Source: Methanolinea sp. (lineage in GTDB: Archaea; Halobacteriota; Methanomicrobia; Methanomicrobiales; Methanospirillaceae). Taken from it: DNA of 64,000 nucleotides. Made by a program: the position numbers and the translations under genes. The stretch is from positions 1,819,636-1,883,635 of the forward strand of contig CP064971.1 of the NCBI GenBank assembly GCA_016699325.1, in the 5' to 3' direction. The notes below the pieces were generated by a model that was not told the DNA's origin, did no database searches, and was given only the letters and a program-made list of their open reading frames with translations. This document shows positions 15,857-50,142 of the stretch, piece by piece (the stretch's first letter is position 1; every line of letters starts with the position of its first letter).

Positions 15857-15942
15857 GATTCCATCAAATATCGGTCCAATTCTATAATGCGACCCTCAAC
15901 CGCAAGATCTAAATAATATAATGTGCTTATATTATAAGCATA

Positions 15943-30435: not shown

Positions 30436-33132
30436 ATGGGATCCTTATTTTTCCAATACTGGGCCAAGGCCAGGGTTGATCCTCCTCAATACCATCTGCT
30501 CCCGTATCATTCCCTTGACGTGGCGGCTGTTGGTTCAGAATACCTCCGGAACGATGGTATTGCGAGATCCAGGATTGCACGGGAACTTGATATCCCCCCA
30601 TCTGATATTCCCGGACTCATTGCATTCTTTCTCGCACTGCATGATTTAGGCAAGTTCGCCGAGTCATTTCAGACCAGGGTACCGGTGGTCTTTTCACTTC
30701 TCCGTGGAAAGGAAACAGGACTATCGGTCCCTGTTCGCCATGATCTCCTTGGCAGGTTTCTTTGGGATTCCGGTGTTGGAGACCATTTTTATAAAAATGA
30801 GATATTACCGTCATCCGGGACCGCCAACCCGGTCTCTGTAAGCCTGGCCCTCAACACCTTGCTGAATGCAGTTTTCGGGCATCATGGTGTCCCCCCTTAT
30901 AGAGAGCTCTTGGTTGCATCTGATGTCTATACCTCGCAGGATGCAGAAGCAGCAAAGGCTTTTGTGACGGAATGCAGTCACATTTTTTTGTCAAATAAGG
31001 ACCACATCCTCTCACTCTCGAAAAAAGAGAGAACAGGTTCTTTACGAGCGTTCTCCTGGCTCCTTGCCGGCCTTGCGGTATTTGCCGATTGGATAGGGTC
31101 GAACGCTCTCATGTTTCCCTACTGTGCCAGCGAGATGCCTCTCCGGGAATACTGGGAAAAGGTTGCCTCTCCAAGGGCTCGATCGGCACTCTCCCATGTG
31201 CGTGTGCTTCCTTTCCCCATATCTTCGAAGCAAGGGATCGATCACCTCTTTCCAGATTTCCGGTCAGGATTGTTCACCCCAAGCGATCTCCAGTGCTATG
31301 CGTCTTCGTGCCAGGCTGGTCCAGGGCCGCACCTTTACATCATCGAGGAGTCTACCGGGAGCGGCAAGACAGAAGCAGCTCTTACTCTTGCCCACCGATT
31401 GATGGCTGAGGGACACGGTCATGGGATTTATTTTGCGTTGCCCACCATGGCAACCTCCAACGCACTCTATGACCGTGTCCAAAAGATCAAAGATAACTTC
31501 TATGCGCCCGGATCGAACCCTCCCATCGTTCTGGCTCACAGCGCCCGCCACCTCGCGGGGTTTTACCTTGAAAGGCCGCCTGTGAATTATCCTGACCGGT
31601 CGAGGGATTCATCTGCCGAAGACCTTTCGCTTTGGCTTACCGACAACCGGAAAAAAGCACTTCTCGCCGCATTGGGTGTCGGGACCATCGACCAGGCCCT
31701 GGTCTCCGTGCTCCCCCGCAGGCACCAGTCGCTCAGGCTTTTCGGGTTATGGCGGAACGTCCTGATTGTTGACGAGGTGCATGCTTACGATCCATATGTA
31801 AACCGACTCCTCAAGTCCCTCATCTGCGATCACGCACGGATTGGAGGCAGTATAATCCTCCTCTCTGCTACCCTCCCTCAGTCCACCAGGGATCAGCTGA
31901 TCGGGGCATTCTGCGAAGGGGCAGGAATCTCGCCAACTGAGGGTAGCCCGAGTCCTTACCCGGTGGTTTTACATGTCTCTCCTTCTGCCAGGGAAGAGCG
32001 GGCTCTAACTCCAAGGCCGGGGACGTCAAGAGAGGTGCAATTGAGATTTTTCGAGAATGAGATGGATGTGGTCGAAGCTCTCCGGGAAACGCTTCAGCGG
32101 GGTGGGTGTGCGTGCTGGATAAGAAACACCGTCTATGACGCCGTCGCTGCATCCCGCTTATTCGGCTGTCTCTCACCTCCTATCCATCCCATGCTGTTCC
32201 ACGCCCGCTTTGTCCTTGGTGACCGGCTCGAACGGGAGAACGATGTTATCAGGCACTTCGGGAAAACGAGCACGCGGGAGGACCGGGCAGGTAGACTGCT
32301 TATTGCCACCCAGGTCGTGGAGCAGTCGCTGGACCTGGACTTCGATTTCATGGTCACAGACCTTGCTCCCATTGATCTCATAATCCAGAGGGCCGGGCGA
32401 CTTCACAGGCACCCCAGGGGGGACAGGGGAGTCCCGGTTCTTGGTATACATGCGCCCGCACATGAGCCAGAGGCAAAGAAAGACTGGTACTCGAAGAAGT
32501 TCCCCAGGGGTTCGTTCGTGTATCCAAGCCATGGAGAGTTATGGCTGACGCAAAAGATCCTCCAAGAGAGAGGGGTGATCAGGACTCCGGATGATGCGAG
32601 GGTGCTCATCGAGGGGGTATACGGGAATGGTGCAAAAACGGCTGTTCCTCCCGAGCTTCTGAAACGGGACCTTCTTGCAGACCAGGAACGGCGTCGGGCT
32701 GAAGGCATTGCTATGCTGAACGTCATCAAATTCGGTCAAGGTTACAAGGACTCGGGGCACAGATGGCCTGATGACGAAGATGTCCCGACAAGGCTGGGAG
32801 AACCTTCGGTGACGCTGCGGGTTGGGGTTATTGATACTGCCAGTAATGTGGCCAGGCCAATTTATTATGCCGGGCAGCATTCATGGGACATGAGCCAGGT
32901 CACTGTGCAGAGGTCAAGACTGGGCAGCGGGATACCTGACTATCAGAGCGATCTCCTCCATCTCGCCAAATCTGCATGTGACTCGATGGCAGACAGAGGA
33001 AGCAATGCGTTACTCGTCCTTCTGCGGCAAGTTACATCGACCTGCTGGGAGAACCATTTCGCCCAGAAAGCAGGCGGCAACCTGTTCGTGAGGTATTCAA
33101 AAGAGAGGGGTTTGGAGATTGAGATAGGTTAA
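30436..33132 (+). CDS. cas3: CRISPR-associated helicase/nuclease Cas3 (HD + DEAH helicase), type I-E
   Basis: HD motifs (LHDLGKF, GHHG), Walker A ESTGSGKTEAAL and DEVH. The likely start is MGSLFFQYWAK at 30436; the ORF track begins at 30355. Confidence 0.9.
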   Translation: MGSLFFQYWAKARVDPPQYHLLPYHSLDVAAVGSEYLRNDGIARSRIARELDIPPSDIPGLIAFFLALHDLGKFAESFQTRVPVVFSLLRGKETGLSVPVRHDLLGRFLWDSGVGDHFYKNEILPSSGTANPVSVSLALNTLLNAVFGHHGVPPYRELLVASDVYTSQDAEAAKAFVTECSHIFLSNKDHILSLSKKERTGSLRAFSWLLAGLAVFADWIGSNALMFPYCASEMPLREYWEKVASPRARSALSHVRVLPFPISSKQGIDHLFPDFRSGLFTPSDLQCYASSCQAGPGPHLYIIEESTGSGKTEAALTLAHRLMAEGHGHGIYFALPTMATSNALYDRVQKIKDNFYAPGSNPPIVLAHSARHLAGFYLERPPVNYPDRSRDSSAEDLSLWLTDNRKKALLAALGVGTIDQALVSVLPRRHQSLRLFGLWRNVLIVDEVHAYDPYVNRLLKSLICDHARIGGSIILLSATLPQSTRDQLIGAFCEGAGISPTEGSPSPYPVVLHVSPSAREERALTPRPGTSREVQLRFFENEMDVVEALRETLQRGGCACWIRNTVYDAVAASRLFGCLSPPIHPMLFHARFVLGDRLERENDVIRHFGKTSTREDRAGRLLIATQVVEQSLDLDFDFMVTDLAPIDLIIQRAGRLHRHPRGDRGVPVLGIHAPAHEPEAKKDWYSKKFPRGSFVYPSHGELWLTQKILQERGVIRTPDDARVLIEGVYGNGAKTAVPPELLKRDLLADQERRRAEGIAMLNVIKFGQGYKDSGHRWPDDEDVPTRLGEPSVTLRVGVIDTASNVARPIYYAGQHSWDMSQVTVQRSRLGSGIPDYQSDLLHLAKSACDSMADRGSNALLVLLRQVTSTCWENHFAQKAGGNLFVRYSKERGLEIEIG

Positions 33133-33222
33133 CCGGGATTTGTCGAAGAGTTAATATTAATTATGAGCTATTTTGATACACCGACGAGGAGGTGAAGTGT
33201 CATACCAGACCATCTGCTCAAT

Positions 33223-34833
33223 TTGATTGAAGATCCATGGATTCCCTGTGTTAAGGATGGGGGAAAGCGGGAGACGCTCACACCATGGCAAATCTTTGGG
33301 AACGGGGGTGAGAATGAAGTACTCTCGCTTGCAACACCAAGGCCCGATTTCCAGGGAGCAGTCATTCAGTTTCTGATAGGGCTTGTACAGACCACGATGG
33401 CTCCACCTGGCGAGGATGAATGGGTCGATGGTCTTCAGTCCCTTCCTGGTGCAAGGGAGGTAAAACAACGGTTCGATGCTGTTTCTCATGCATTTAATCT
33501 TGGGGGGGACGGTCCCCGGTTCATGCAGGACACCAGTTGTGCTGATGTGGGGGAAAGGCCAATCGAGTCTTTAATCATTGGAATGCCTGGTGAGAACACT
33601 TATGAAAAAAACAGGGACTTTTTTTGCAAAAGAAACACCATCAAACAACTTTGCCCTTCCTGCGCCGCAATGGGGCTTATATCGCTTCAGTTAAACGGTC
33701 CGCAAGGTGGACAGGGTCATAGGGCAGGTCTTCGTGGGGGTGGACCACTGACCAGTGTAATACTGGGCAAGTCTCTCCCCGAGCTTATATGGCTGAACGT
33801 CCTTCCCGAAGATGAATTCTTCATTGGTCTTTCCGGCGAGCGTAAGAGTGCAATCAATGATATTTTCCCTTGGATGGGTCCTTTACGAACAAGTGAAGGT
33901 GGAGATGAAGGGCTGTTTACTGGAATTTCAGACGCAAGTCAACTCCAGATGTTTTGGGGAACGGGGCGGCGAATCCTCCTTGGCACGGAACATACAACTC
34001 ATGGAACCTGCGACATATGCGGCGAGGCAACTCCGGCGGGCATAACCTCTTTGAGGACGAAAAATTACGGTATTCGATACGATGATAGCTGGCGGCATGT
34101 TCTCACGCCGTATTACCGGTCCGAGGACACATACCTTCCTGTTCACCTCCATGGTGATGGGATTGCTTACCATCATTGGCTGGGACTGGTCCAGAATGAT
34201 GTAGAACAAGGCGTAGAAGTCGCCCATGTTGTGCGACGGTTTAGAAACATCCAGGCGAACCTTTCCGGTATCCTCCCTGACATTCCTCAACTGTGGGCAT
34301 TTGGATATGATTTTAAAAAGGTTGAAGCCCGGTGCTGGTACGAGAGCTATATGCCCCTGATCCGGGTTGAAAATTCCATCCGGGCTGATTACGAAGTGTA
34401 CATCGCCCAGATCGTTCGTGCTGCAAAATATGTAAACAGAATGGTCAATGGTGCAATCAATGATGCCCTTTACAAATCTGAAAACAAGGGGGCATCATCA
34501 GGCAAGAAAGTAAAACGCGAGAAAAGTCCAAAGGTTCTTTCCATTGTCATGACCAGGTTCTGGTCCGAGACAGAGACCCTGTTTTATTCTACCCTCTCGG
34601 AAGTGAAAAAAGCCTTGGAGAACAACGAACCCGTTGATCCGATCAAGCGCAGGTGGGTGATGGGAGTAAGAGGGGTTGGACTGAACCTCTTTGACTTTTA
34701 TTCACAAGCGCAATATGTCGACGAACACCGGCCGAAAGCAATTATCGGCGCACGCAAAAAGCTTTCAATGACGATATCACCAGGATCACCCAAGCTGATG
34801 CAAATTCTCTCCCTCTCCAAGGAGGCAGGATAA
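33223..34833 (+). CDS. cse1: Cascade large subunit Cse1/CasA (Cas8e)
   Basis: N-terminus LIEDPWIPCVKDGG...LTPWQIF is typical of Cse1. It occupies the first position of the Cascade operon. It has an apparent TTG start behind GGAGGTGA. Confidence 0.85.
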   Translation: MIEDPWIPCVKDGGKRETLTPWQIFGNGGENEVLSLATPRPDFQGAVIQFLIGLVQTTMAPPGEDEWVDGLQSLPGAREVKQRFDAVSHAFNLGGDGPRFMQDTSCADVGERPIESLIIGMPGENTYEKNRDFFCKRNTIKQLCPSCAAMGLISLQLNGPQGGQGHRAGLRGGGPLTSVILGKSLPELIWLNVLPEDEFFIGLSGERKSAINDIFPWMGPLRTSEGGDEGLFTGISDASQLQMFWGTGRRILLGTEHTTHGTCDICGEATPAGITSLRTKNYGIRYDDSWRHVLTPYYRSEDTYLPVHLHGDGIAYHHWLGLVQNDVEQGVEVAHVVRRFRNIQANLSGILPDIPQLWAFGYDFKKVEARCWYESYMPLIRVENSIRADYEVYIAQIVRAAKYVNRMVNGAINDALYKSENKGASSGKKVKREKSPKVLSIVMTRFWSETETLFYSTLSEVKKALENNEPVDPIKRRWVMGVRGVGLNLFDFYSQAQYVDEHRPKAIIGARKKLSMTISPGSPKLMQILSLSKEAG

Positions 34834-35336
34834 TGATGATTAAAGAGAAAGTCTGGCTGAACTTCAACGATCCTCACGTATCAGGTTTTCTCCTGCAATG
34901 GTGGGAAGATCTTGACAAGAGACGCGGAGACCGGGCAGAACTCCGGAGGTGTAAGCTCCCGGAAGAGGTGCTGTTCCTCCCCTCTTACTACCGGCTCCGG
35001 CTCCCTATGATCCAGTACGACGGATTCAACGATACTTCGCTTGGCACTGTGGCCGGGGTTGTCTCCCATGCCAAACGCTCCGACAGCTCTGAACGGTTTG
35101 CTGAGCAGCTTGCAAAAAAGCCACCAGGAGGAGATTCTCCTGTCATGAGCGAACTCCGTTTCCGTAAGTTCCTCTCGATACGGGAGCCAAACGCCCTCTT
35201 CCGGGAAGGGATCAGGGCGGTCCGCCTACTGGATGGTGTTGTGAATATCCCAGACCTTGCCCAGGGACTTTACTGGTGGAAGAATTCCAGGACGAGGCAG
35301 GAATGGGCCCGTTTCTATTATGAAAAAACCGTGTGA
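34833..35336 (+). CDS. cse2: Cascade small subunit Cse2/CasB (Cas11e)
   Basis: 167 aa, start overlaps the cse1 stop by 1 nt, at the position and size expected for Cse2. Confidence 0.8.
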   Translation: MMIKEKVWLNFNDPHVSGFLLQWWEDLDKRRGDRAELRRCKLPEEVLFLPSYYRLRLPMIQYDGFNDTSLGTVAGVVSHAKRSDSSERFAEQLAKKPPGGDSPVMSELRFRKFLSIREPNALFREGIRAVRLLDGVVNIPDLAQGLYWWKNSRTRQEWARFYYEKTV

Positions 35337-35343
35337 TGTGACT

Positions 35344-36480
35344 ATGACTGAATTCATTCAACTGCATGTTCTTGCTTCGTATCCTCCATCGAACCTGAAC
35401 CGTGATGACCTCGGGCGGCCGAAGACTGCCATCATGGGCGGAACCCAGCGCCTGCGTATCTCCTCCCAGAGCCTTAAGCGGGCCTGGAGGCAGTCCGATT
35501 TCTTCCAGGAGGCGCTCTCCGGGCATATCGGGACAAGGACAAGAGAGATGGGGAATAAGATTGTTGAAGCGCTGACAACCGGCAAGACGTTGACGGACAT
35601 ACTCTCAAACCTGGAAAGGGCTCCCAGCAGGACACCGGTCCCGGAGAAGGAGGCTGTGGAATGGACAAAGGCCATTGCCGGGCAATTTGGAAAACTGACA
35701 GAAAGGAAAGGTAAAAAGTCGGATAAGGCTGACCAGACGGAAGAAAAAGATAATGACCCGGTTAAGATCGAACAGATCGCCCATTTCAGCCCACAGGAGA
35801 TTGCAGCGATTGACGCGCTTCTTAATAAGTGTATTGCCAGCGGGAAGGCTCCTGAAAAGGAGGATCTCTTGTTATTGCGAAAGGACCACACTGCAGCTGA
35901 CATCGCGATGTTTGGGAGGATGTTTGCGAAGTCTCCTGTCTATAACACCGAGGCCGCCGTGCAGGTGTCCCACGCTATCACGGTCCATGATGTGGTTGTC
36001 GAGGATGATTATTTCACCGCGGTAGACGACCTGAATGTCCTTGAGACCGATGCTGGATCTGCCCACATCGGGCAGTTCGAGTTTGCCGCAGGGCTCTATT
36101 ACTTCTATATCTGCATCAACCGTGACCTGCTGATCGAGAACCTGATGGGAGATGCGAGCCTTGCATCGCGGGCGATTGGCGCGATCACAGAGGCATGTGC
36201 CAAAGTTGCGCCGGCAGGCAAACAGGCCAGTTTTGCGTCCCGGGCCTATGCGTCGTACATGCTTGCCGAGAGGGGCTCCCAACAACCCCGCTCGCTGGCT
36301 GTTGCATATATCAAACCGGTGAAGGGTGGCGATATTCTCACTGCAGCGATCCGCGGGATTGAAGAGACCCGGAAGAACATTGACAAGGTCTACGGGCCCT
36401 GTTGCAAGGATGCACGCTCGTTCAACACCACGACGGGCGAGGGGTCACTGGCTGAAATCGTTCGCTTTGTGTCGTCGTGA
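35344..36480 (+). CDS. cas7: Cascade backbone subunit Cas7e (CasC/Cse4)
   Basis: MTEFIQLHVLASYPPSNLNRDDLGRPKTAIMGGTQRLRISSQSLKRAWR is the canonical Cas7e N-terminus. The ORF track starts at 35257. Confidence 0.9.
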   Translation: MTEFIQLHVLASYPPSNLNRDDLGRPKTAIMGGTQRLRISSQSLKRAWRQSDFFQEALSGHIGTRTREMGNKIVEALTTGKTLTDILSNLERAPSRTPVPEKEAVEWTKAIAGQFGKLTERKGKKSDKADQTEEKDNDPVKIEQIAHFSPQEIAAIDALLNKCIASGKAPEKEDLLLLRKDHTAADIAMFGRMFAKSPVYNTEAAVQVSHAITVHDVVVEDDYFTAVDDLNVLETDAGSAHIGQFEFAAGLYYFYICINRDLLIENLMGDASLASRAIGAITEACAKVAPAGKQASFASRAYASYMLAERGSQQPRSLAVAYIKPVKGGDILTAAIRGIEETRKNIDKVYGPCCKDARSFNTTTGEGSLAEIVRFVSS

Positions 36481-37229
36481 CTATGACCCGTTATTGCGTA
36501 TTCACGTTGTATGGTCCCATGGCCTCATGGGGGGAGATCGCAGTCGGAGAAGATCGGCGTTCATCAGACCACCCTTCCAAGTCTGCACTGGTTGGCATGA
36601 TTGGTGCCGGGCTGGGGATCAATCGTGACCAGGAGGATATTCATTCCCGCCTTGCACGAACAATAGGGATGGCCAGCCTGGTCCTTTCGGCAGGAAACCC
36701 TGTTGAGGATTTCCATACGATACAGACTCCTCCCCAGGCTGAACTGAAAAAGGGCGCTCATTTCCATACCCGGAAGGACGAACTCTCGATTGGCGCAGAC
36801 GCACTCGAAACCATCATTTCCAGGAGAGAATACCGGTGTGATACCTTTCTTGGGATATGTCTCTGGATGCGTGATGCGGATGGTCCTTTCCGGCTTGAGG
36901 AGATAGCCAATTCGTTGAATGCACCGGCGTTTTTCCTTTACCTTGGGCGGAAATCCTGTCCTCCTGCTCTTCCAGTTTCTGCGCTCGTAGTAGAAGCTGC
37001 TTCCGTCCTTGATGCTTTCAGGGAGGCTGCGAAGAAGAATGTGTGGTTTGCCAAAAGGTTATCGTCCCTGTCAGAAGCCCCCATGTACTGGGACCCGGAT
37101 GGTGTGCCGGGCATCGAGACACTGCACGTGTACCAGCGGAGAGACGAGGTTCTCAGCAGGAAAAGGTGGACGTTCTCGAACCGGTCCGAGCATTATGGTA
37201 TAGCGACGATACCTGGTGCGGGGGGGTGA
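36477..37229 (+). CDS. cas5: Cas5e (CasD)
   Basis: TRYCVFTLYGPMASWGEIAVGEDRRSSDHPSKSALVGMIGAGLGI is the typical Cas5e N-terminus. The start overlaps the cas7 stop. Confidence 0.9.
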   Translation: MTMTRYCVFTLYGPMASWGEIAVGEDRRSSDHPSKSALVGMIGAGLGINRDQEDIHSRLARTIGMASLVLSAGNPVEDFHTIQTPPQAELKKGAHFHTRKDELSIGADALETIISRREYRCDTFLGICLWMRDADGPFRLEEIANSLNAPAFFLYLGRKSCPPALPVSALVVEAASVLDAFREAAKKNVWFAKRLSSLSEAPMYWDPDGVPGIETLHVYQRRDEVLSRKRWTFSNRSEHYGIATIPGAGG

Positions 37230-37232
37230 GCG

Positions 37233-37922
37233 ATGTTCTTCAGCAGGATCCGTATCAGACCGGATGCCACGTATTCTCCGGAGTTCTGGAAGGTTGCCAC
37301 GGGGCCGTACCAGATCCACTCGATGGTGTGGGACTTGTTTGCCGATCCTGAACACCAGGACAGGGACTTTCTATACCGGGTCGATATCGTCAACGGGAGA
37401 CCGGTCGTATACTCGGTCTCGCAACGGAGGCCGGTATACATGGGGAACCTATGGTCGGTGGAGACAAAGGAGTATCACCCTGTCCTCTTTGCCGGGCAGC
37501 GACTTTCGTTTGCTCTGCGGGCAAACCCGGTCAGGACGCGATGGACAGCCCCTGACGGGGAGGGCAGGCGCACCCAGAAGCGCCACGATGTAGTAATGGA
37601 TGTAAAGAGGGCGATGCGCCTGGATAACGGGGCCGTTGGAGCCAGCATGGCGGAACTGGTCCAGAACGAGGGGTTCCGCTGGCTCCAGGAGAGGGGGGCA
37701 AAGAATGGATACAGCGTGGAGAGCCACCAGGTTCTTGCGGGGGCTTACCGGCAGCACTCGTTTCACCAGGGATCAAAAAACCGCCTTGTCTCACTGAGCA
37801 CAATAGATTTCAACGGACTGCTCAATGTGACTGATCCTGACCGGTTCAGAACTGCGCTCATGCATGGTATCGGGCCTGCAAAGGGATTTGGGTGCGGTAT
37901 GATGATGGTGAAGCCGGCATGA
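37233..37922 (+). CDS. cas6e: Cas6e (CasE) pre-crRNA endoribonuclease
   Basis: MFFSRIRIRPD...HSMVWDLFAD...RDFLYRV is the CasE pattern, at the expected position in the operon. Confidence 0.85.
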   Translation: MFFSRIRIRPDATYSPEFWKVATGPYQIHSMVWDLFADPEHQDRDFLYRVDIVNGRPVVYSVSQRRPVYMGNLWSVETKEYHPVLFAGQRLSFALRANPVRTRWTAPDGEGRRTQKRHDVVMDVKRAMRLDNGAVGASMAELVQNEGFRWLQERGAKNGYSVESHQVLAGAYRQHSFHQGSKNRLVSLSTIDFNGLLNVTDPDRFRTALMHGIGPAKGFGCGMMMVKPA

Positions 37923-37929
37923 TGCGGCA

Positions 37930-39131
<1,202 letters not shown>

Positions 39132-39166
39132 AATAGACCTTTTCTTTGTAGTACTTAAGTTGAAGA
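39132..39166 (+). promoter_or_regulatory. Very short AT-rich CRISPR leader between cas2 and the first repeat
   Basis: AAATAGACCTTTTCTTTGTAGTACTTAAGTTGAAGA lies directly upstream of repeat 1. Repeat orientation places transcription on the + strand. Confidence 0.5.
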
Positions 39167-40278
39167 GAGTTCCCCACGCCCGTGGGGATGAACCACTGAC
39201 AAAGTTTGTTTCTGGTTCATGGTCAGCGAGTTCCCCACGCCCGTGGGGATGAACCAGCACCAGGAGAACGTGACCGGATCGTATGATGGAGTTCCCCACG
39301 CCCGTGGGGATGAACCGTTCTGGGTCGTGGGAAGTGCTGCGACAGGTTGGAGTTCCCCACGCCCGTGGGGATGAACCGCCATAGCAGAACACAGTGGATG
39401 GAGCTGGTAAGAGTTCCCCACGCCCGTGGGGATGAACCCATTCTAGGATAAGTTGCACCCATCAAAACCACGAGTTCCCCACGCCCGTGGGGATGAACCG
39501 TAGTCAAGGTTCACCAGCTTCTCTTTCCTCCCGAGTTCCCCACGCCCGTGGGGATGAACCAATGGAACAGATGAACGATCTACTCGGGCTTCCGAGTTCC
39601 CCACGCCCGTGGGGATGAACCACCGGGGCGGAAGTCCTGGACAAAGCACTTGAAGAGTTCCCCACGCCCGTGGGGATGAACCGGGAGCTACCGGGGCATA
39701 CGAAGCATATACCGAGAGTTCCCCACGCCCGTGGGGATGAACCAATTCCGCCGGAGTTCGTATGAGTGCAAAGAAGGAGTTCCCCACGCCCGTGGGGATG
39801 AACCATTCTTGCCCGGAACCGCAACCATTGAGAGCATGAGTTCCCCACGCCCGTGGGGATGAACCGAGCGGGTGAAAAAGATGGGTTTGGGTGCAACAGA
39901 GTTCCCCACGCCCGTGGGGATGAACCTCCTGGATATGTTGATGACTGGAGGATGCTGAAGAGTTCCCCACGCCCGTGGGGATGAACCTTCTACGATTCTT
40001 TCTGGACGTTGTTTCACTTCGAGTTCCCCACGCCCGTGGGGATGAACCAGGATTGTGGATTACTGTGCAGAGAATGATATGGAGTTCCCCACGCCCGTGG
40101 GGATGAACCACACAGCAGATGCACCCTTATAAGATAACGATACGAGTTCCCCACGCCCGTGGGGATGAACCGTCCTTGCAACGACCTTAAGCATCGAGCG
40201 CGGTGAGTTCCCCACGCCCGTGGGGATGAACCATCAAATGCGTCGAATTGATCATCATGTTCTCCGAGTTCCCCACGC
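39167..40278 (+). CRISPR. Type I-E CRISPR array: 18 full repeats, 18 spacers, plus a 19th repeat truncated after 13 nt
   Basis: The repeat GAGTTCCCCACGCCCGTGGGGATGAACC (28 nt plus a variable 29th base; stem CCCCACG/CGTGGGG) starts at 39167 and recurs every 61 bp, with one 62-bp step (40082 to 40144). The last copy at 40266 reads GAGTTCCCCACGC and then unrelated sequence. Confidence 0.97.
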
Positions 40279-40347
40279 AAAAAAACAAGCCTGCCGGGGC
40301 CGAAGAGAGAGAAAAAATGAGCGGAGGGGGGGAAATCTCCCGGCTCC

Positions 40348-40728
40348 TTACCCGGGCCCCCCGGCTCCCGACCCTTTCATCAAGCCGTATTCGATCTCGT
40401 AGTACCCGCCTCCCTGGTCGCTGAACGCCAGGAAGTAGTGGAGGAGCTGCTGCCCCTCGGCCTCCTCAATCTGCCGGAGGAGTGCCGCCTGGTTTGCCGC
40501 ATCGTGGCCGGAAAGGACCCACTTCCTGGTATCGTCCTGCATCTTCCAGGAGCGGGCCGGGACCGGTGCCGGCGGCGTTGTGACCGAATCGTCCTCCGGG
40601 TCATAGAAAGCGATCACCCGGCGGGTCTCCTTCTCTGCATTGACCTTCTGGCGCCGCTGCCAGAAAGCGATGGCAGCCACTGCGACAGCAACCACCATCT
40701 CGATGAGCTGGATCAAATCTTCTTCCAT
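40348..40728 (-). CDS. Hypothetical protein with N-terminal TM helix (element gene)
   Basis: MEEDLIQLIEMVVAVAVAAIAFWQRRQK followed by a soluble domain. The ORF track begins at 40761. Confidence 0.5.
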   Translation of the reverse strand: MEEDLIQLIEMVVAVAVAAIAFWQRRQKVNAEKETRRVIAFYDPEDDSVTTPPAPVPARSWKMQDDTRKWVLSGHDAANQAALLRQIEEAEGQQLLHYFLAFSDQGGGYYEIEYGLMKGSGAGGPG

Positions 40729-40785
40729 GGCCAAAGCACCCCGTGACAGAGGAGGTCGCATGGAGGATGGTGGTGGAGCGGTTTT

Positions 40786-40908
40786 TCACCGCTTCCACCT
40801 GCCCTGGTCCGTCCGGTCGTGCATCCCGACGATGATCCTGATCATGACGAAGAGCATGGTCAGGCTCCCGAGGCAGATGCCGAGGACGAACATGAATCCT
40901 TCATCCAT
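40786..40908 (-). CDS. Possible 40-aa single-TM protein
   Basis: Hand translation: MDEGFMFVLGICLGSLTMLFVMIRIIVGMHDRTDQGRWKR. It is below the ORF-track cutoff. Confidence 0.3.
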   Translation of the reverse strand: MDEGFMFVLGICLGSLTMLFVMIRIIVGMHDRTDQGRWKR

Positions 40909-40937
40909 GACCCCTCCCCCGTCCATCCGATCCTGGT

Positions 40938-41441
40938 TCAGGCGAGCTCGGGCTTCGTGTCAGCCCAGGTCTCGATGGTCGCAAGGATGGCGTCATCGCT
41001 GTACGACGTGACGCGGACCTGCTCACGGCCGAAGGCCACGTAGTAGATCTCACCGTTGGCGTCATGGCACTTGAGCGTCGCCGAGAAGGAATCTTCATCG
41101 GAGACGTGGATGGCGTCGCCGCCGATGGCCGTGGCAAGCGCGGTATCCGCGGCAATTGCCGTTACCGCGGCATTGAAGGCTGCCACGGTGGGTGCACGGG
41201 CAGTGACCGACCCGACGACCTTGGCTTCGGCGTTCTCGTACTCGATCCGGGCGGTGTACCCTTCACGGCTCTTTGCTACCGGTGCCTGCGGGACACCGGC
41301 GACATCGTATGCGGTGCAACCCCATGGATTGCCGGAGATGACCCCGGAGACGAGGTTGTTGAACGCTGCGATGTCTGCAATCGGCGAGGCAAGCTCGCGG
41401 ACTGCGGTTTTGGTGATACTCTGTTGGACAAAGTCTCCCAT
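40938..41441 (-). CDS. Ala-rich 167-aa protein of the element (candidate structural protein); truncated paralog at 5630
   Basis: Clean ORF behind the RBS-like AAGGGCAGGAGAAAAGCC and a TATA-like box. I recognise no family. Confidence 0.7.
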   Translation of the reverse strand: MGDFVQQSITKTAVRELASPIADIAAFNNLVSGVISGNPWGCTAYDVAGVPQAPVAKSREGYTARIEYENAEAKVVGSVTARAPTVAAFNAAVTAIAADTALATAIGGDAIHVSDEDSFSATLKCHDANGEIYYVAFGREQVRVTSYSDDAILATIETWADTKPELA

Positions 41442-41491
41442 GGCTTTTCTCCTGCCCTTTTCAGGGCAACAACCAGGTAAAACATGAAAGG

Positions 41492-41502
41492 ATATATATT
41501 TT
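41492..41502 (-). promoter_or_regulatory. TATA-box-like element upstream of the 167-aa gene
   Basis: AAAATATATAT (minus-strand sense) lies ~50-60 nt upstream of the ATG at 41441, in an otherwise GC-rich spacer. Confidence 0.35.
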
Positions 41503-41811: not shown

Positions 41812-42159
41812 TCACCCCGGTTCCACCTGCGTTCTCCCGACAAAGAGCGGGGCCTTCCGCTGCTTCCCGGCAAGCAGCCTCGTGACCGACTGAAGCGGGG
41901 TGGTGTAATAGAACGGTTCGATGGTGAAGTTCAGCGCTTTCCCCGAGAAAGAACGCCGGACCGTTCCCGCCACCATGCCGGTGGACAGGAGCCGGACCGG
42001 TTGGGGTTCGCCGTTGATGGCCCTGGCAAGGTCCGGGAGCGGGACGCGGAACCCCCGGCTGTCAAGGTCGGACCGGACCACCATGTCCTCTCCCCGGATG
42101 TAAACCCGTCCGACCTTTTCAAACGCCGGTTCGACATGTTCGGTGACCGTCCAGGTCAA
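41812..42159 (-). CDS. Hypothetical protein (element gene)
   Basis: 115-aa ORF whose start overlaps the stop of the helicase gene by 4 nt. Confidence 0.5.
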   Translation of the reverse strand: MTWTVTEHVEPAFEKVGRVYIRGEDMVVRSDLDSRGFRVPLPDLARAINGEPQPVRLLSTGMVAGTVRRSFSGKALNFTIEPFYYTTPLQSVTRLLAGKQRKAPLFVGRTQVEPG

Positions 42160-44063
42160 CCGGCCACCTCCCCGTGATCCTGGATTGCGGCGATCCGCTG
42201 GTAACAGGTCTCGCAGAGTTTTGTCCCGGTACCCCGGTCGATATAGGTGGCCAGGTCAAGGTTACAGACAGTGCACCGGCAGAGGCTGGTGGTGAGCCGT
42301 TCCATCCGGGCAGGGTCGACGGTCCCGGGAAGGATGGTGGCTGACTGCTGGGCTCTCACCTTTGCCCGGTCATAGCAGTTCCTGCAGACCTGGTAGGGCT
42401 GCCAGCAGTCCTTCGGCCGGTTCTTCCGCTCCACGGTCAGCTTCTCGACATAGTGGGTCCAGGGGTGGCCGCACACCCGGCAGAAGGTGTGGTCAGGGAC
42501 CTCCAGGGGCTTGTAGTCCTGGGGCCGGATATGGATCTTTGCTGGAGCAGGCGGCCCGGGTTTCCTGCAGCATTGCAGCAGTCCTTCAGCAGGATCACGG
42601 TTTTCCAGGGGATAGGTCCGGCCCCTGTCCTGGCGCGGATCCTGAAACGGAGGCCCCTCCCTGGTTTTTTCGATCCTGTCCCCCAGCATTTCAGCAATTT
42701 CCCGTTCGCACGGGCCCTGCGTTCCATGACCTCCTGCCGACACGGTGTTCTCTGTATCCTGGGATTTGCTGGGGGATTGATCTGAACTAAGAATAATATC
42801 ATTATTACAGGTATTATTTTCCGGATCAGAGCCCGTAAATTCGTTTTCGAATCGTGCAGCAGTTTGCTGGGGATTGCTGAAGGATTGCTGTGATGCTGAA
42901 GGATGGTCCGGGTCGTCATCCAGCCATACCGATCCCCCCAGGGACCATGACCTGAAGAGCTCGCGGTCGAAGGTATAGGCATTGGTCCGCCTCCGCATCG
43001 AGGACGCCCCGTCTTCGCCATCGGTCACCACCGTCCGGTCGCAGAAGGAGATGGCCGGGCACTTCTCGAGCAGTCCGGAATACATGGTCCCCCTGCTGTC
43101 GTACCCGTGGATAAGCCGGTGCACGCAGCTGTTGCTCCAGCCGGTCTGCTTCTGGAGCTGGGGGATGGTGAACTCCTCCTGGTCGTTTTGGGAGATGATC
43201 CCGATCAGCGCCGATTCCCTCCAGGTGAGCTTGGTCTCCTGTCCCCCGGCAATACCGTTCAGGAGCTGGTAGAGCCGGGCTGCTTCCCGGAAGTCTTCGC
43301 GGGTAGCGGTGAGGCAGCGGGTCCGGCCGCAGGTGGTCTGTTCCCGCTGCATGTACCGCAGCACGGTGTTGGCCTTGATGAGGTCGAGCAGCATCTCAGG
43401 GTTTCTCCGGTTCGCATGGGCCACGAACCGGATGCTGGTCGCAAAGGGGATGATGACGTGGAACATCTGCCTCCCGATGTTCTCCCAGATCGCCTGGCAG
43501 GTCAGGACTTCCGGCCGTTCCTGTCCCTGGTCGTCCGGGGGGGCCTGGTCCCGCTGGAGGACCCGGGCGAGCACGCGGTCGTCCTGTTCGGCGGATTCGT
43601 CGATCCAGCAGGTGAGCATCCGGTTGAAGACCTGGTCGTCCCCTGCTCCTTCCACCTTTGCCACCCACCAGATGCACCGTTCCGGGATGGTGCAGACCTG
43701 CCCTTTCCGGTCCTTGCTGACCGTCCGGTAAAGGAATGGTTCCCGGAAGGAGGTGGTGACGCCTTTCAGGATCTCGGCCATGTCCTCCGAGAGCGTGGTG
43801 TCGTCGAACACGATCGCTGAGCCGGGCTGGAGGTCTTCGATGTAGAAGAGGGCTTTGTTGCTCATCCGCCCGGCCAGGCGGAACCGTGCAGGGACCTGCC
43901 GGAGGAGGGTGGTGAAGGCATGGCTCTTTCCTTTCCCGCTCTCACCGGTCACGGAGACGTGCAGTCCGTTGGTGTTGGTGACCGATCGCGAGGCAAGGGA
44001 CAGGATCATGCATTCGGCCGGGACTTCGTCGCCGACATGGTCGAGGGCAAAGGTCCGGAGCAA
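42156..44063 (-). CDS. P-loop (SF3-like) helicase part of the replicase, with C-terminal zinc ribbons; frame stays open upstream to ~44564
   Basis: Walker A VTGESGKGKSHAF, Walker B-like AIVFDD, and four CxxC pairs at the C-terminus. Upstream, the same frame reads PPHRRSRLLSVPGTLEVVPV...EHCPFSSAHRDG. Confidence 0.8.
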   Translation of the reverse strand: MLRTFALDHVGDEVPAECMILSLASRSVTNTNGLHVSVTGESGKGKSHAFTTLLRQVPARFRLAGRMSNKALFYIEDLQPGSAIVFDDTTLSEDMAEILKGVTTSFREPFLYRTVSKDRKGQVCTIPERCIWWVAKVEGAGDDQVFNRMLTCWIDESAEQDDRVLARVLQRDQAPPDDQGQERPEVLTCQAIWENIGRQMFHVIIPFATSIRFVAHANRRNPEMLLDLIKANTVLRYMQREQTTCGRTRCLTATREDFREAARLYQLLNGIAGGQETKLTWRESALIGIISQNDQEEFTIPQLQKQTGWSNSCVHRLIHGYDSRGTMYSGLLEKCPAISFCDRTVVTDGEDGASSMRRRTNAYTFDRELFRSWSLGGSVWLDDDPDHPSASQQSFSNPQQTAARFENEFTGSDPENNTCNNDIILSSDQSPSKSQDTENTVSAGGHGTQGPCEREIAEMLGDRIEKTREGPPFQDPRQDRGRTYPLENRDPAEGLLQCCRKPGPPAPAKIHIRPQDYKPLEVPDHTFCRVCGHPWTHYVEKLTVERKNRPKDCWQPYQVCRNCYDRAKVRAQQSATILPGTVDPARMERLTTSLCRCTVCNLDLATYIDRGTGTKLCETCYQRIAAIQDHGEVAG

Positions 44064-44503
44064 GAACTGCTTGGGGTCGCCGTGCCGGAGGAGTCCGAGG
44101 GCTTCGTTCTGGCACGGGATCCCGCCAGGGGTGGGGGGTGAGGACGCCGGTGTCCCGGGTTGTTCCTGCTGGTGCTCTGCCGGTGGCGGTCGTGCCTGTT
44201 TCTTCTTCTCTCCTTCGAAGGCCTCCCGGAGCTCGGGCCACCGTTGTGCCCCGGCGCCGCAGGAGGTGTGCTGGCAGCCGGCGTGGATGGCGCCGTTTGG
44301 GAACTGGATGGCAAAGGCTCCGTCCCGGTGGGCGCTGGAGAACGGGCAGTGTTCCAGGGCGTAGATGGTGCCGCCCTGGTAGGGTTTCTCGCGGGTGATC
44401 CCGATCCCGTGGTCTTTTAGCCAGGAGCCGAGGTCCAGGCGGTTGCCGGTCCGGGTGCCGGGTGGTGCGTCCGGGAGGGTGGCGGCCAGTTGTTCGAGGA
44501 GTT

Positions 44504-45190
44504 TTACGGGTACGACCTCCAGGGTCCCGGGGACCGAGAGGAGCCGCGACCGCCGGTGGGGAGGTCGGGGGTGTGGTCTCCTTTCCGGGAGAGAGTGCCG
44601 TAGAGTTTCCAGATCCGGGCGGCGTTGTGGTTCGCGGTATCGATGGTGGTGGTGGCGTCATCGAACATGGCGGCGAGCACTTCGAGGCACTGCCTGACGA
44701 GGTGCCGGGACCGGTCGTCGTTTTTGCAATCGATCCGGTAGAGGAGGTGGGCGCCGTTCCCCGAGTCGGCGATGACCGGGGCCGGCCATCCTTTCGCGGT
44801 CAGCAGGGCGGCCACCCGGGTGGCGGTGCCGATGGCTGCCTGGTGTTCCGGTCCGGTGGACGAGACGCCGGAGGGCCGGACGGGGTCGATGTCGATGGGA
44901 AGCCAGCGTCTCCGCAGGATGTCGGTGTCGGCGGTGGTGGCATCTTTCTTGCCGAGGCGGGTCTTGACCCGGTTCGCCCGGCGGGAGAGGAGGGCCGGGT
45001 TCACCTCGTTCAGGGTGATGTAGATACCCTGGATGCCGGGCAGGCCGTCCAGGGTGTCGACCGCGGTGGCGAGGGTGCCGGGGTCATCGAAGTACCCGCT
45101 GCCGGTTCCGTCTTCGGTGATGACCCGGACCTCTGCTACCTGTCCGGGAGGGCAGAGGAGCGCTGCAGCTTTGCAGGTCTCATGGCTCAT
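44504..45190 (-). CDS. Primase-polymerase (prim-pol) N-terminal domain of the same replicase, separated by a frameshift near 44565
   Basis: Motifs WLPIDIDP and ADSGNGAHLLYRI (prim-pol catalytic signatures). After KGDHTPD the conserved PHRRSRLL continues in the frame of ORF 42156..44063. Confidence 0.8.
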   Translation of the reverse strand: MSHETCKAAALLCPPGQVAEVRVITEDGTGSGYFDDPGTLATAVDTLDGLPGIQGIYITLNEVNPALLSRRANRVKTRLGKKDATTADTDILRRRWLPIDIDPVRPSGVSSTGPEHQAAIGTATRVAALLTAKGWPAPVIADSGNGAHLLYRIDCKNDDRSRHLVRQCLEVLAAMFDDATTTIDTANHNAARIWKLYGTLSRKGDHTPDLPTGGRGSSRSPGPWRSYP

Positions 45191-46197
45191 GGCCGGGCAC
45201 CTCCGGGTTTCTTCCGCCCCGGTGTTTCTCCTGGGAGAGGTCCGGGAGGTGGTATCGTGGCTGGTATTGGACCGTCGTCCTGGTGGTGATCCTGCATCTT
45301 ACGGCCCAACCGTGCTCCGGAAGGTGCCACCGTGGTCGGTATTGAGCTATCGTCCTGGTGGTGGTCCTGCATCTTACGGCCTAACCGTGGTCCGGAAGGT
45401 GCCACCGTGGTCGGTATTGAGCTATCGTCCTGGTGGTGGTACTGCATTTTACGGCCCAACCGTGCTCCTGGGACTGGTCCGGGAGGTGCCATCGTGGTCA
45501 GTATTGAGCTATCGTCCTGGTGATGGTCCTGCATCTTACGGCCCAACCGTGCTCCTAGGATTGGTCCGGGAGGTACCATCGTATCCGGTATTGAGCTATC
45601 GTCCTGGTGATGGCCCTGCATTTTACGGCCCAACCGTGCTCCGGAAAGGGGTCCGGGAGGTGCCATCATATCTGACATTGAGCCGTCGTCCTTGTGAAGA
45701 TCCTGCGTTTTACGGCCCAACCATGCTCCGGAGAGGGGTCCGGAAGGTGCCATTGTATCCGGTGGCTGTCCGTCGTCATGGTGGTGGTCCTGCATCTTAC
45801 GGCCCAACCGTGCTCCGAGGATTGGTCCGGGAGGTGCCATCGTATCTGGTGGTGGCCCGTCGTCCTGGTGATGGCCCTGCATTTTACGGCCCAACCATGC
45901 TCCGAGGACTGGTCCGGGAGGTGCCATCGTATCTGGTGGTGGCCCGTCGTCCTGGTGATGGTCCTCCATCTTACGGCCCAACCGTGCCCCGGGGAGGGGG
46001 GAGGGGTCATCCCCCTGGCCCGACGCCTGGGACCGGCCAGTGATCAGCTCGCAGGACCAGACGGTCTCCTTCCCGAAACGGCGGCTTGTGGCAGCGGCAC
46101 AGTTCCTGCCCTGGCAAAGGACGATGCCATGGGCATCTGACATGAAGGGGCAGATCTTCCGCTCTGACATGCGGCCGTTCTCATGTTCAGTCCACAT
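45187..46197 (-). CDS. Repeat protein: Cys-rich N-terminus plus ~9 tandem 25/29-aa repeats
   Basis: N-terminus CPFMSDAHGIVLCQGRNCAA, then repeats of the form GARLGRKMQDHHQDDGPPPDTMAPPGP. Start and stop overlap both neighbours. Confidence 0.6.
   Translation of the reverse strand: MWTEHENGRMSERKICPFMSDAHGIVLCQGRNCAAATSRRFGKETVWSCELITGRSQASGQGDDPSPLPGARLGRKMEDHHQDDGPPPDTMAPPGPVLGAWLGRKMQGHHQDDGPPPDTMAPPGPILGARLGRKMQDHHHDDGQPPDTMAPSGPLSGAWLGRKTQDLHKDDGSMSDMMAPPGPLSGARLGRKMQGHHQDDSSIPDTMVPPGPILGARLGRKMQDHHQDDSSILTTMAPPGPVPGARLGRKMQYHHQDDSSIPTTVAPSGPRLGRKMQDHHQDDSSIPTTVAPSGARLGRKMQDHHQDDGPIPATIPPPGPLPGETPGRKKPGGARP
45260..46010. repeat. Coding tandem repeat, units of 75 bp (x3) then 87 bp (x6)
   Basis: TTACGGCC recurs at 45299, 45374, 45449, 45536, 45623, 45710, 45797, 45884 and 45971. 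Confidence 0.9.
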
Positions 46198-46570
46198 ACT
46201 GCCCCTCCTCTGCGATCCCGCCCGGGTACACGGTGAAGATATGCCAGCATCCCGACCCGGTATAGACCCACAGCTCGACTTCTATCCCGTCCCACCGGGG
46301 GATGTCCTGGAGGGCCCGGACATCGTCACGCCAGTAGCGCATCACGTCGTCGATCCCGATGACTTCATGCCGGGTCCGTCTCACGTGCACGAGGAGCAGG
46401 TGGCATGTCCGCTCGCACCAGGCGACCAGGTGGATCGAGGTGGAGTAGCGCATGGTGCGGAACACGCTGTATCCCTTCCTGCTGAGGAACAAGCAGGCCT
46501 GCGATTCGGCGGTGCGGCCCCGCTGGGGGTAGGAAGCAGGCGCGGTAAGGGTGCACTTACGCCGTAGCAT
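46187..46570 (-). CDS. Hypothetical protein (element gene), faint PD-(D/E)xK/Hjc-like pattern
   Basis: The likely start is MLRRKCTL at 46570. The segment GYSVFR...IHLVAWCERTCHLLLVHVRRTR resembles a nuclease core, but the acidic residues are not conserved. Confidence 0.4.
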   Translation of the reverse strand: MLRRKCTLTAPASYPQRGRTAESQACLFLSRKGYSVFRTMRYSTSIHLVAWCERTCHLLLVHVRRTRHEVIGIDDVMRYWRDDVRALQDIPRWDGIEVELWVYTGSGCWHIFTVYPGGIAEEGQYVD

Positions 46571-49349: not shown

Positions 49350-49770
49350 GTCATCTCCCATTTCTTTCCGCATACGTGGCACACCCCACCACATAAGAAC
49401 ATCGGATCCATCGCAGCAGCGGGTGCCTGGGAACACTCCCTGTCCCCGGCGTTCACCGGGCCGGTCGCAGTCACCCGCCCCGTCCAGGGCTGTGCAGCGG
49501 GAAAGGACCCGGTGCAGGACAGAGGAGGCAGGGAGAGAAACAGGCCGGAGCCGGGAGGTGCCCGAACCGAACCGGTCCAGGAAAGGCTTACAGGGACGGC
49601 CAGGGGAAAGAGGACGCTTCAAGGACCCGGGCCTGGTGCCCCCCAAGTGACCGGTGCTTCCCGGACCTGGTGCCCCCCCACTGACCGGTACTTCCCGGGC
49701 CAATGCCGATCCTTCACTTTCGCTCTCCGTGTGGCTGATCCTGTTGAGGCTGGAGACCAGAGTGACGGGT

Positions 49771-49992: not shown

Positions 49993-50142
49993 CCCTCCTA
50001 TTCAAGTCTGTTCTGCAATGGGCATTCGCCCCGTCTTGTGCACCGTGGGAGTCCCTGCAGGGGACGCTTACGAAGACGGAAATCCGTGCAGGACAAACTC
50101 TCCGGGCGAGTTACTGCAATTCTCGCCACCTTGAAGGCCTGG

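What the first reader, a model, noticed from the sequence alone, without database searches (positions are those of the whole stretch)
40266..40290. CRISPR array ends in a repeat cut cleanly after 13 nt, exactly where a prim-pol element begins
- Repeat 19 reads GAGTTCCCCACGC and then switches abruptly to AAAAAAACAAGCCTGCC. The first minus-strand gene of the ~6.7 kb replicon-like block follows.
- Terminal repeats usually decay by point mutation. A sharp breakpoint instead suggests that integration or deletion removed the older part of the array.
- A mobile element landing in, or deleting part of, the immune memory that could target it would be biologically meaningful.
Basis: partly seen in the sequence, partly recalled or inferred. 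Interest (0 to 1): 0.6.

Follow-up and report, generated by a model that had tools for sequence, protein, structure and literature searches.

The report
Half-repeat scar ending a CRISPR array
A methanogen's CRISPR array really does stop in the middle of a repeat, next to a small plasmid-like element, but this is the scar of an old illegitimate DNA joining, a fairly common way for such arrays to end, and the element did not jump into the array.

Summary
A complete type I-E locus (cas3 to cas2, 30436-39131) is followed by 18 perfect 28-nt repeats. A 19th copy keeps only its first 13 nt (40266-40278), broken at the centre of the repeat palindrome. Independent assemblies show the same junction, so it is not an artefact.

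The neighbour (about 40279-47279) is a mobile-element copy: an integrase-less prim-pol/MCM-like replicon of the arCOG07809 kind, common in Methanoregulaceae. The other repeat half and any further array are absent from the window and the genome. There is no target-site duplication. That rules out a simple insertion.

A 96.5%-identical sister strain carries the same element at the same site with its canonical ~220-nt end arm. Here that arm is replaced by 64 unique nucleotides plus the stub. A third genotype shares the stub, the 64 nt and 226 nt of the first element gene, then diverges to about 60% identity. That marks a homologous-recombination crossover inside the gene.

In my survey, 3 of 30 other I-E arrays end in clean 5' stubs. 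No spacer matches the element.

Best reading: a one-off non-homologous joining at the edge of a horizontally acquired I-E cassette and a resident element. This is an ordinary kind of event and of low interest.

The parts
30436..39131 (+). Complete type I-E cas operon: cas3, cse1, cse2, cas7, cas5, cas6e, cas1, cas2
   Evidence: Pfam hits for every gene. Gene starts follow the calls on identical contigs.
39132..39166 (+). Short AT-rich stretch between the cas2 stop and repeat 1. The leader probably overlaps the cas2 3' end.
   Evidence: Sequence. Spacer 1 is first in every assembly.
39167..40265 (+). CRISPR array: 18 identical 28-nt repeats and 18 spacers
   Evidence: The spacer set is identical in independent assemblies.
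40266..40278 (+). Repeat 19, truncated: only the first 13 nt (GAGTTCCCCACGC). The break is at the palindrome centre.
   Evidence: The same stub is present in L133 and L145-L149.
40279..40342 (.). 64 nt of unique junction sequence. On the minus strand it carries T7 and T6 runs downstream of ORF137, which look like archaeal terminators. It replaces the canonical ~220-nt terminal arm of the element.
   Evidence: Found only in the window and its clones, and in L133. Not homologous to the canonical arm. No stable hairpin.
40348..40761 (-). ORF137, a small membrane protein and the first gene of the element. A recombination crossover lies at about 40512-40571.
40938..41441 (-). 167-aa protein, the most widely conserved small gene of the element family
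41812..42159 (-). 115-aa element protein, conserved in relatives
42156..45190 (-). Replicase: AEP prim-pol, Zn-binding part, MCM-like AAA+ ATPase, HTH, C-terminal Zn fingers. It is split by one -1 frameshift in a C4 run near 44555.
   Evidence: tblastn against the intact G002 and sister-strain proteins. Folds. The frameshift is present in all clonal assemblies.
45187..46197 (-). Tandem-repeat His/Asp/Pro-rich protein: 336 aa here, 249 aa in the sister strain
46187..46570 (-). 127-aa protein, possibly a PD-(D/E)xK / Holliday-junction-resolvase-like nuclease
   Evidence: Weak YraN hit. arCOG09441 is associated with arCOG07809 in PMC4158269.
46557..47279 (-). Small Cys-rich ORF(s) and the non-coding right arm of the element. 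Homology with the G002 copy ends at 47279.
47736..49370 (-). DHH/CBS/DRTGG/DHHA2 protein, the chromosomal right flank. It is shared with the sister strain.

Best explanation
The 13-nt stub is the scar of a single non-homologous (illegitimate) joining. One partner was the middle of an I-E repeat, broken at the tip of its hairpin-forming palindrome. The other was DNA at the edge of a resident integrase-less prim-pol/MCM-like element.

The element was already at this chromosomal site, next to the DHH gene. The I-E cassette (cas3 to array) is the horizontally acquired partner. Its older spacers and native trailer were either left behind when the cassette was joined here or deleted in situ. The same event removed the element's canonical ~220-nt terminal arm.

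The junction then became fixed and was inherited. Later the element body was exchanged by homologous recombination with related elements, with a crossover inside ORF137.

Shown:
- The stub is real and inherited.
- The other repeat half is absent.
- The canonical arm has been lost.
- The locus has a mosaic, recombinant structure.

Inferred:
- The order of events.
- Breakage at the hairpin.
- Whether the lost spacers were deleted here or never arrived.
For: - The stub is sharp and sits at the palindrome centre.
- No second half of the repeat exists in the window or genome. No array remnant lies at 47280-47735.
- The same junction is present in many independent assemblies.
- Sister strain L144: the element and DHH gene are 96.5% identical, but homology stops at 40338-40343. 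Beyond that point L144 has the canonical structured arm shared with L009, L119 and L124.
- The 64-nt filler is unique and unrelated to that arm.
- The window equals L133 (100%) left of about 40565 and equals L144 (98-100%) right of about 40512.
- The I-E locus is absent from the 16 other species of the genus. Its GC is below that of the element and the core genes. The nearest Cas1 is only 81% identical.
- The nearest species, G002, has the DUF2298 orthologue with a relic of the same element family in the same orientation 5.7 kb to its right, and no CRISPR between them.
- The element family is old and abundant in this order.
Against: - No genome shows the pre-event state, neither a longer array nor an empty site. 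The direction and order of events are therefore inferred.
- With three genotypes and two segments, it cannot be decided which one is the recombinant.
- The sister-strain contig ends in an IS copy 222 nt beyond ORF137, so an array could still lie beyond it.
- The 64 nt could be the cassette's own trailer. In that case the real joint with the element is at about 40343 and the stub predates it.
Confidence: 0.55

Rival explanations
1. This is an ordinary, older 3'-truncated terminal repeat. The stub and the unique 64 nt are the native trailer of the I-E cassette and have nothing to do with the element. The adjacency only reflects both lying in a variable, island-rich region.
For: - 3 of 30 other I-E arrays end in clean 18-nt 5' stubs. 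One of them (L066) is followed by an ordinary argininosuccinate lyase gene.
- The literature notes 3' truncations of terminal repeats (PMC8047081).
- Homology of every other element copy to the window stops at 40338-40367, right after the ORF137 stop and not at the stub.
- The 64 nt are unique.
- The window is a mosaic of islands, IS copies and defence genes.
Against: - The 64 nt carry T6 and T7 runs oriented as terminators for ORF137. This is the same layout (stop, short GC-rich stretch, A-run on the plus strand) seen behind ORF137 homologues in L123, L125 and L126. At least part of the 64 nt therefore looks like element sequence.
- The element has lost its canonical arm exactly here.
- All 18 upstream repeats are perfect, which does not suggest an old, decaying array end.
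Confidence: 0.27
2. One reading: the element integrated into repeat 19 and split the array. The distal half-repeat and the older spacers were then lost by a second deletion.
For: - The stub abuts a genuine mobile-element copy.
- The closest relative of the element, in G002 contig C26, also abuts the trailer end of a different, 92-repeat array.
- MGE insertions into I-E repeats do occur, for example IS21 in L067.
Against: - No second half of the repeat, no duplication and no array remnant exist anywhere.
- The element has no integrase or transposase and no att-like terminal repeats.
- The element end at the junction is itself truncated relative to the sister strain.
- The element occupies the same site in a strain that lacks the junction.
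- 79 of 80 further replicase loci have no array abutting the element.
- This reading needs two events where one is enough.
Confidence: 0.1
3. Assembly or binning artefact: a chimeric join inside a repeat.
For: Repeats often break or mis-join assemblies. The genome is a single-contig MAG-like assembly ending in 100 N.
Against: - The junction is identical in at least 6 independent assemblies from JGI, NCBI and Logan.
- It is also present in a genotype whose element differs downstream.
Confidence: 0.01

Closest known systems
Degenerate or 3'-truncated terminal repeats of CRISPR arrays (Jansen 2002, Horvath 2008 and others, as reviewed in PMC8047081)
   Same: - It is the leader-distal repeat.
- The 5' part is kept and the 3' part lost.
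- The dyad symmetry is destroyed.
- The trailer end is stable across strains.
   Different: - The cut is clean at nt 13, the palindrome centre. It does not show substitutions or a loss of only a few bases.
- Every other repeat is perfect.
- The stub is fused within 64 nt to a truncated mobile-element end.
Insertion-sequence insertions into CRISPR repeats (example found here: IS21 IstA/IstB in the Aquabacterium I-E array, locus L067)
   Same: A repeat is interrupted after about 13-14 nt, and mobile DNA follows directly.
   Different: In L067 both repeat halves flank the IS with an 8-bp duplication, and the array continues. Here there is no second half, no duplication, no continuation and no transposase.
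arCOG07809 (Mpal_2033-type) small integrated elements of Methanomicrobia (Makarova et al. 2014, PMC4158269)
   Same: - The replicase has primase-polymerase, ATPase/helicase, HTH and Zn-finger parts.
- The element is small (about 7 kb).
- It has a possible HJR-like nuclease partner.
- The host order is the same.
- Genomes carry many copies and relics.
   Different: The paper reports integrases and att sites for some members, and this copy has neither. I could not compare directly with Mpal_2033, so membership rests on architecture and taxonomy.
pRN1 / pTN2-type archaeal plasmids with prim-pol-helicase replicases, and Methanothermobacter plasmid pMTBMA4 (source of Pfam PF27228)
   Same: There is an N-terminal AEP prim-pol fused to an NTPase and a wHTH. 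The replicon is plasmid-sized. The Pfam tag MTBMA_p00010_2nd is attached to homologues.
   Different: The NTPase resembles MCM-type AAA+, whereas pRN1 has an SF3 helicase. There is no sequence-level hit to any solved prim-pol. The element was found only integrated, and I found no free circular form.

Membership tests
Type I-E CRISPR-Cas locus | Gene set cas3, cse1, cse2, cas7, cas5, cas6e, cas1, cas2 in one operon | tested here: met
   Pfam Cas3_HD/Cas3-like_C_2, CRISPR_Cse1, CRISPR_Cse2, Cas_CT1975, Cas_Cas5d, CRISPR_assoc (Cas6e), Cas_Cas1, Cas_Cas2CT1978
Type I-E CRISPR-Cas locus | 28-29-nt palindromic repeat of the GxGTTCCCC...GGGGATGAACC type with about 32-33-nt spacers, array downstream of cas2 | tested here: met
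   The repeat matches those of 60+ I-E loci fetched through Cas1.
3'-truncated or degenerate terminal repeat (known array feature) | Last, leader-distal repeat keeps its 5' part and has lost or changed its 3' part | tested here: met
   13 of 28 nt kept and 2 of the next 15 matching. The cas genes and AT-rich leader side are at the other end.
3'-truncated or degenerate terminal repeat (known array feature) | Occurs in other arrays of the same type without an adjacent mobile element | tested here: met
   L034, L066 and L096 have clean 18-nt stubs. L066 is followed by argininosuccinate lyase.
Mobile-element insertion into a CRISPR repeat | Both parts of the split repeat flank the insert, and the array continues beyond it | tested here: not met
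   No copy of CCGTGGGGATGAACC (up to 3 mismatches) outside the array in the window. In the genome there are only two chance hits inside genes.
Mobile-element insertion into a CRISPR repeat | Target-site duplication, or att-like direct repeats at the two ends of the insert | tested here: not met
   No repeats shared by the two ends of the element in L144 or L009 beyond 8-9-nt chance matches. Positive control: IS21 in L067.
Mobile-element insertion into a CRISPR repeat | The element encodes an integrase or transposase | tested here: not met
   No Pfam, PHROG or NCBIfam integrase or transposase hit on any element ORF.
arCOG07809-type small integrated elements | Replicase with an N-terminal AEP primase-polymerase domain | tested here: met
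   Invariant DxD and SGNGxH motifs. A model with pLDDT 92.8 matches LigD PolDom (E 3e-4), Prim-PolC, CAPP prim-pol and PriS.
arCOG07809-type small integrated elements | P-loop ATPase/helicase, HTH and Zn-finger parts in the same protein | tested here: met
   Walker A GESGKGKS. The central domain resembles MCM AAA+ (E 1e-7). Weak MarR-type HTH. Conserved C-terminal Cys pairs.
arCOG07809-type small integrated elements | Associated PD-(D/E)xK HJR-like nuclease (arCOG09441) | tested here: inconclusive
   The 127-aa ORF gives only weak YraN hits (E 0.0015, far below the cut-off).
arCOG07809-type small integrated elements | Direct sequence relationship to Mpal_2033 / arCOG07809 profile | not testable with these tools
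   No arCOG library is available. Homologues carry Pfam PF27228 and come from Methanoregulaceae, including Methanoregula formicica and Methanolinea mesophila.

The most novel reading that the evidence does not exclude
Copies of this integrase-less element family may serve as portable homology that lets whole CRISPR-Cas cassettes move between strains by homologous recombination, or the family may preferentially settle at the ends of CRISPR loci.

Three CRISPR loci abut members of the family:
- the trailer of the I-E array here;
- the trailer of a 92-repeat array of another type in the nearest species;
- the cas3 side of a related I-E operon in another Methanolinea MAG.

The window itself is a recombinant whose crossover lies inside the first element gene, directly next to the array.
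Probability: 0.1. Interest if true: 0.55.

Novelty: new member of a known kind. Interest (0 to 1): 0.25.

Why it matters
The locus is a clean, dated example of how a CRISPR array loses or never receives its oldest memory. The cause was one illegitimate joining at the hairpin centre of a repeat, and no gradual decay is visible. It also shows that the DNA next to an array can be swapped by homologous recombination while the scar persists.

For annotation there are two practical lessons. A sharp half-repeat next to mobile DNA does not prove insertion. The test is whether the other half exists. The survey figure (about 10% of I-E arrays end in clean 5' stubs) is a useful baseline.

Nothing here changes the current understanding of CRISPR or of these elements.

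Tried and rejected
1. Missing repeat half elsewhere. Searched the window with up to 3 mismatches and the genome with up to 1 mismatch. Only chance hits inside genes, at C1:594840 and C1:836748.
2. Microhomology idea. MAFFT aligned the stub's CCCCACG with a CCCCACGA...TCGTGGGG hairpin in the canonical arm of L009, L119 and L124. The 69 nt after the stub show no significant similarity to the sequence after that hairpin (z of 1.4 or less, against 12-20 among true homologues). Rejected as coincidence.
3. Spacer-mediated integration or self-targeting. None of the 18 spacers matches the genome or the element. No window spacer and no G002 spacer matches any element copy. Spacers 1 and 18 have no exact match in IMG/VR.
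4. Synteny reconstruction from other species. DHH homologues elsewhere in the genus are only about 50% identical and have no shared neighbours. Only DUF2298 is shared with G002. No empty site could be found.
5. General association of the element family with arrays. 20 + 80 further loci were examined, and only G002:C26 abuts an array.
6. Sister-strain cas locus. Variants of Cas proteins found by cluster look-up belong to the same clone at 99.9% identity. They gave no information on another trailer end.
7. Sequence searches of the replicase against PDB, as a single protein and as a profile: no hit. Local Pfam, PHROGs and NCBIfam: no hit for the replicase.
8. att-like repeats between the element ends: none.
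9. Rfam on the whole window: nothing.

Full report
**What is there.** The window lies in a 1.95-Mb, 55.6% GC single-contig genome. Its relatives are Methanolinea and other Methanoregulaceae. Positions 30436-39131 hold a complete type I-E operon: cas3, cse1, cse2, cas7, cas5, cas6e, cas1, cas2. After 35 AT-rich bases comes an array of 18 identical 28-nt repeats (GAGTTCCCCACGCCCGTGGGGATGAACC) with 33/34-nt spacers.

Exactly one spacer length after repeat 18, at 40266-40278, stand the first 13 nt of the repeat. AAAAAAACAAGCC follows, and only 2 of the next 15 bases match the repeat. The cut falls between C13 and C14, the symmetry centre of the repeat's palindrome. Because the cas genes and the AT-rich leader side are on the left, the stub is at the old (trailer) end.

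**Not an artefact.** The same spacers 14-18, stub and downstream sequence occur in JGI contig Ga0208196_1018686. A 20-kb stretch covering the cas genes, the array, the stub and the element is 99.99-100% identical in JGI 3300010311, JGI 3300009658 and NCBI GCA_035384385.1. Shorter contigs from other samples agree. All of them carry the same 18 spacers, with spacer 1 first. The array is therefore frozen in this clone. One Logan contig has spacers 1, 15-18 and the stub.

**What the neighbour is.** From about 40279 to 47279 all genes are on the minus strand:
- ORF137, a small membrane protein;
- a 167-aa protein;
- a 115-aa protein;
- a replicase;
- a tandem-repeat protein;
- a 127-aa protein with weak YraN (PD-(D/E)xK) similarity;
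- a small Cys-rich ORF.

The replicase is one gene split by a -1 frameshift in a C4 run near 44555. The frameshift is present in every clonal assembly. An intact 1011-aa version exists in a sister strain (P0002).

The replicase's N-terminal 211 residues, modelled at pLDDT 92.8, match AEP/prim-pol folds: LigD polymerase domain E 3e-4, Prim-PolC, CAPP prim-pol and PriS. The DxD and SGNGxH motifs are invariant. The central part resembles MCM-type AAA+ ATPases. Homologues carry Pfam PF27228 'MTBMA_p00010_2nd'. No integrase, transposase or att-like end repeats were found.

The family is very large in Methanomicrobiales:
- DNA relatives in 36 of 41 related genomes, often several per genome;
- at least 1856 protein relatives;
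- 386 matches among species-representative genomes.

Its architecture fits the arCOG07809 (Mpal_2033) small integrated elements described by Makarova et al. 2014 (PMC4158269). 'Prim-pol element' is therefore a fair label.

**Was the array split by the element? No.** A simple insertion leaves the second half of the repeat and the rest of the array at the other end of the insert. The half CCGTGGGGATGAACC is absent from the window outside the array (up to 3 mismatches). In the genome it appears only as two chance hits inside genes. Nothing repeat-like lies between the element's right end (47279) and the DHH gene.

My survey supplied a positive control. In an Aquabacterium I-E array (L067), an IS21 sits in a repeat after 14 nt. 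The remaining repeat, an 8-bp duplication and further repeats lie on the far side.

**How unusual is a clean stub?** I examined 31 other I-E arrays whose last in-phase repeat lies inside loci fetched through Cas1. L067 is the IS case above. Of the remaining 30, three (L034, L066, L096) end in a clean 18-nt 5' prefix. The one in L066 is followed by an ordinary argininosuccinate lyase gene. A review likewise lists substitutions or truncations at the 3' end as typical of terminal repeats (PMC8047081). A sharp 5' stub is thus a minority ending for I-E arrays, but a normal one.

**What strain comparison shows.** Contig JARKUA010000049.1 of GCA_029972775.1 (L144) carries the DHH gene and the same element at 96.5% identity, with an intact replicase. 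Homology to the window stops at 40338-40343, five bases beyond the ORF137 stop. Beyond that point L144 has a ~220-nt structured non-coding arm. That arm is conserved in element copies of other species (L009, L119, L124). After the arm comes a copy of a 1.52-kb IS, where the contig ends. That IS has at least 25 near-identical copies in this genome.

In the window the canonical arm is missing. It is replaced by 64 nt found nowhere else and unrelated to the arm, followed by the stub. On the ORF137 strand the 64 nt carry T6 and T7 runs. Short terminator-like flanks behind ORF137 homologues in L123, L125 and L126 have the same layout. The 64 nt do not fold into a stable hairpin. Both partners of the junction are therefore truncated: the array in mid-repeat, and the element at its end arm.

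**A recombinant locus.** The JGI contig L133 is 100% identical to the window from the array through the stub, the 64 nt and the last 226 nt of ORF137. It then drops to about 55-65% identity, although the genes stay collinear with the same family. Conversely, window versus L144 is 81-98% identical in 40332-40511 and 98-100% from 40512 onward. A homologous-recombination crossover therefore lies at about 40512-40571, inside ORF137. The scar has persisted while the element body was exchanged. Which of the three genotypes is the recombinant cannot be decided from these data.

**Who came first.** Several lines suggest the cassette arrived later than the element:
- The I-E operon has no DNA relative in the 16 other species of the genus.
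- Its GC (0.49-0.56) is below that of the element and of the neighbouring core genes (0.60-0.68).
- Its best Cas1 relative is only 81% identical.
- The element family is old in this lineage.
- The sister strain has the element at this site.
- The nearest species (G002) has the DUF2298 orthologue (74% aa) with a decayed relic of the same element family, in the same orientation, 5.7 kb to its right and no CRISPR between them.

I therefore favour this order: a resident element, with a horizontally acquired I-E cassette joined to its edge by illegitimate recombination in mid-repeat. An in-situ deletion from a longer array into the element arm is an equally mechanical variant that I cannot exclude. 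The rival that the stub and the 64 nt are simply the cassette's own old trailer keeps substantial weight.

**No sign of an immune conflict.** None of the 18 spacers matches the element, the rest of the genome, or any of about 130 related element loci. The 92 spacers of the G002 array do not match them either.

**Adjacency to arrays.** The closest relative of the element (G002 contig C26, 75-83% nt identity) abuts, with its other end, the trailer of a 92-repeat array of a different type. A related I-E operon in a Methanolinea MAG has a family member 1.7 kb upstream of cas3. Against this, 20 + 79 further replicase loci have no array abutting the element. About 6% have any cas gene within 10 kb, which is close to what island clustering would give. 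I keep a targeted or functional association only as a low-probability reading.

**Verdict.** The finding is real and well described. Its biology is ordinary: a breakpoint scar at the trailer end of an acquired I-E array next to a resident, partly decayed plasmid-like element.

Noticed in passing
window 8539-10056: A 1.52-kb IS with a 332-aa transposase ORF (9008-10006, minus strand). It is present in at least 25 copies at 99% identity or more across the 1.95-Mb genome, which indicates a recent IS burst. The same IS truncates the sister-strain contig 222 nt from the element. Solo 40-nt IS-end copies (for example 8359-8398) are also scattered around the genome.
   Followed up: partly
window 30436-33132 (cas3) and the whole array: In NCBI GCA_029548915.1 and JGI 3300010344 the otherwise 99.9%-identical locus has cas3 split into 325 + 265 aa. 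No assembly shows a spacer newer than spacer 1. The I-E system may be inactive or decaying in this clone.
   Followed up: partly
window 44550-44560: The replicase -1 frameshift in a C4 run is fixed in all clonal assemblies. It is therefore a real mutation and not a sequencing error. The 96.5%-identical sister strain has an intact 1011-aa gene.
   Followed up: yes
window 45187-46197: The tandem-repeat protein of the element varies in length: 336 aa here and 249 aa in the sister strain (L144 3877-4626).
   Followed up: partly
L009 (G002:C26) 12484-18620: The closest relative of the element ends 38 nt from the degenerate terminal repeat of a 92-repeat array (repeat GTCGCACCCCGTGCGGGTGCGTGGATTGAAAT, AT-rich leader at the far end). 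That copy also carries a Fic/DOC + HTH gene absent from the window.
   Followed up: partly
window 5542-5794 (ORF 5591-6268, minus strand): A second, diverged fragment of the element's 167-aa gene lies inside the same window. Further partial copies are at genome C1:881163-882618, 768376-768823, 1784457-1784750 and 276106-276341.
   Followed up: no
window 49713-50175: A non-coding stretch upstream of the DHH gene is conserved at 66-75% in many genomes of the genus, often in several copies per genome, and once more in this genome (C1:869330-869551). There is no Rfam match. It could be a small mobile or structured element.
   Followed up: no
L201 (CAYSII010000021.1, Methanolinea MAG) 1-13066: A related I-E operon (65-68% nt identity) has a member of the same element family 1.7 kb upstream of cas3. 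This is a third case of this family next to a CRISPR locus.
   Followed up: partly
L143 (G002:C18) 5842-8840: Next to the DUF2298 orthologue of the nearest species lies a decayed relic of the element family: the 167-aa gene, the 115-aa gene and the replicase C-terminal fragment. It has the same orientation as in the window and is separated from DUF2298 by low-GC cargo in place of a CRISPR locus.
   Followed up: partly
loci L034, L066, L096: Three unrelated bacterial I-E arrays all end in a terminal repeat cut after exactly 18 nt, just before the GGGG of the 3' stem arm. This may reflect a preferred break or retention point.
   Followed up: no
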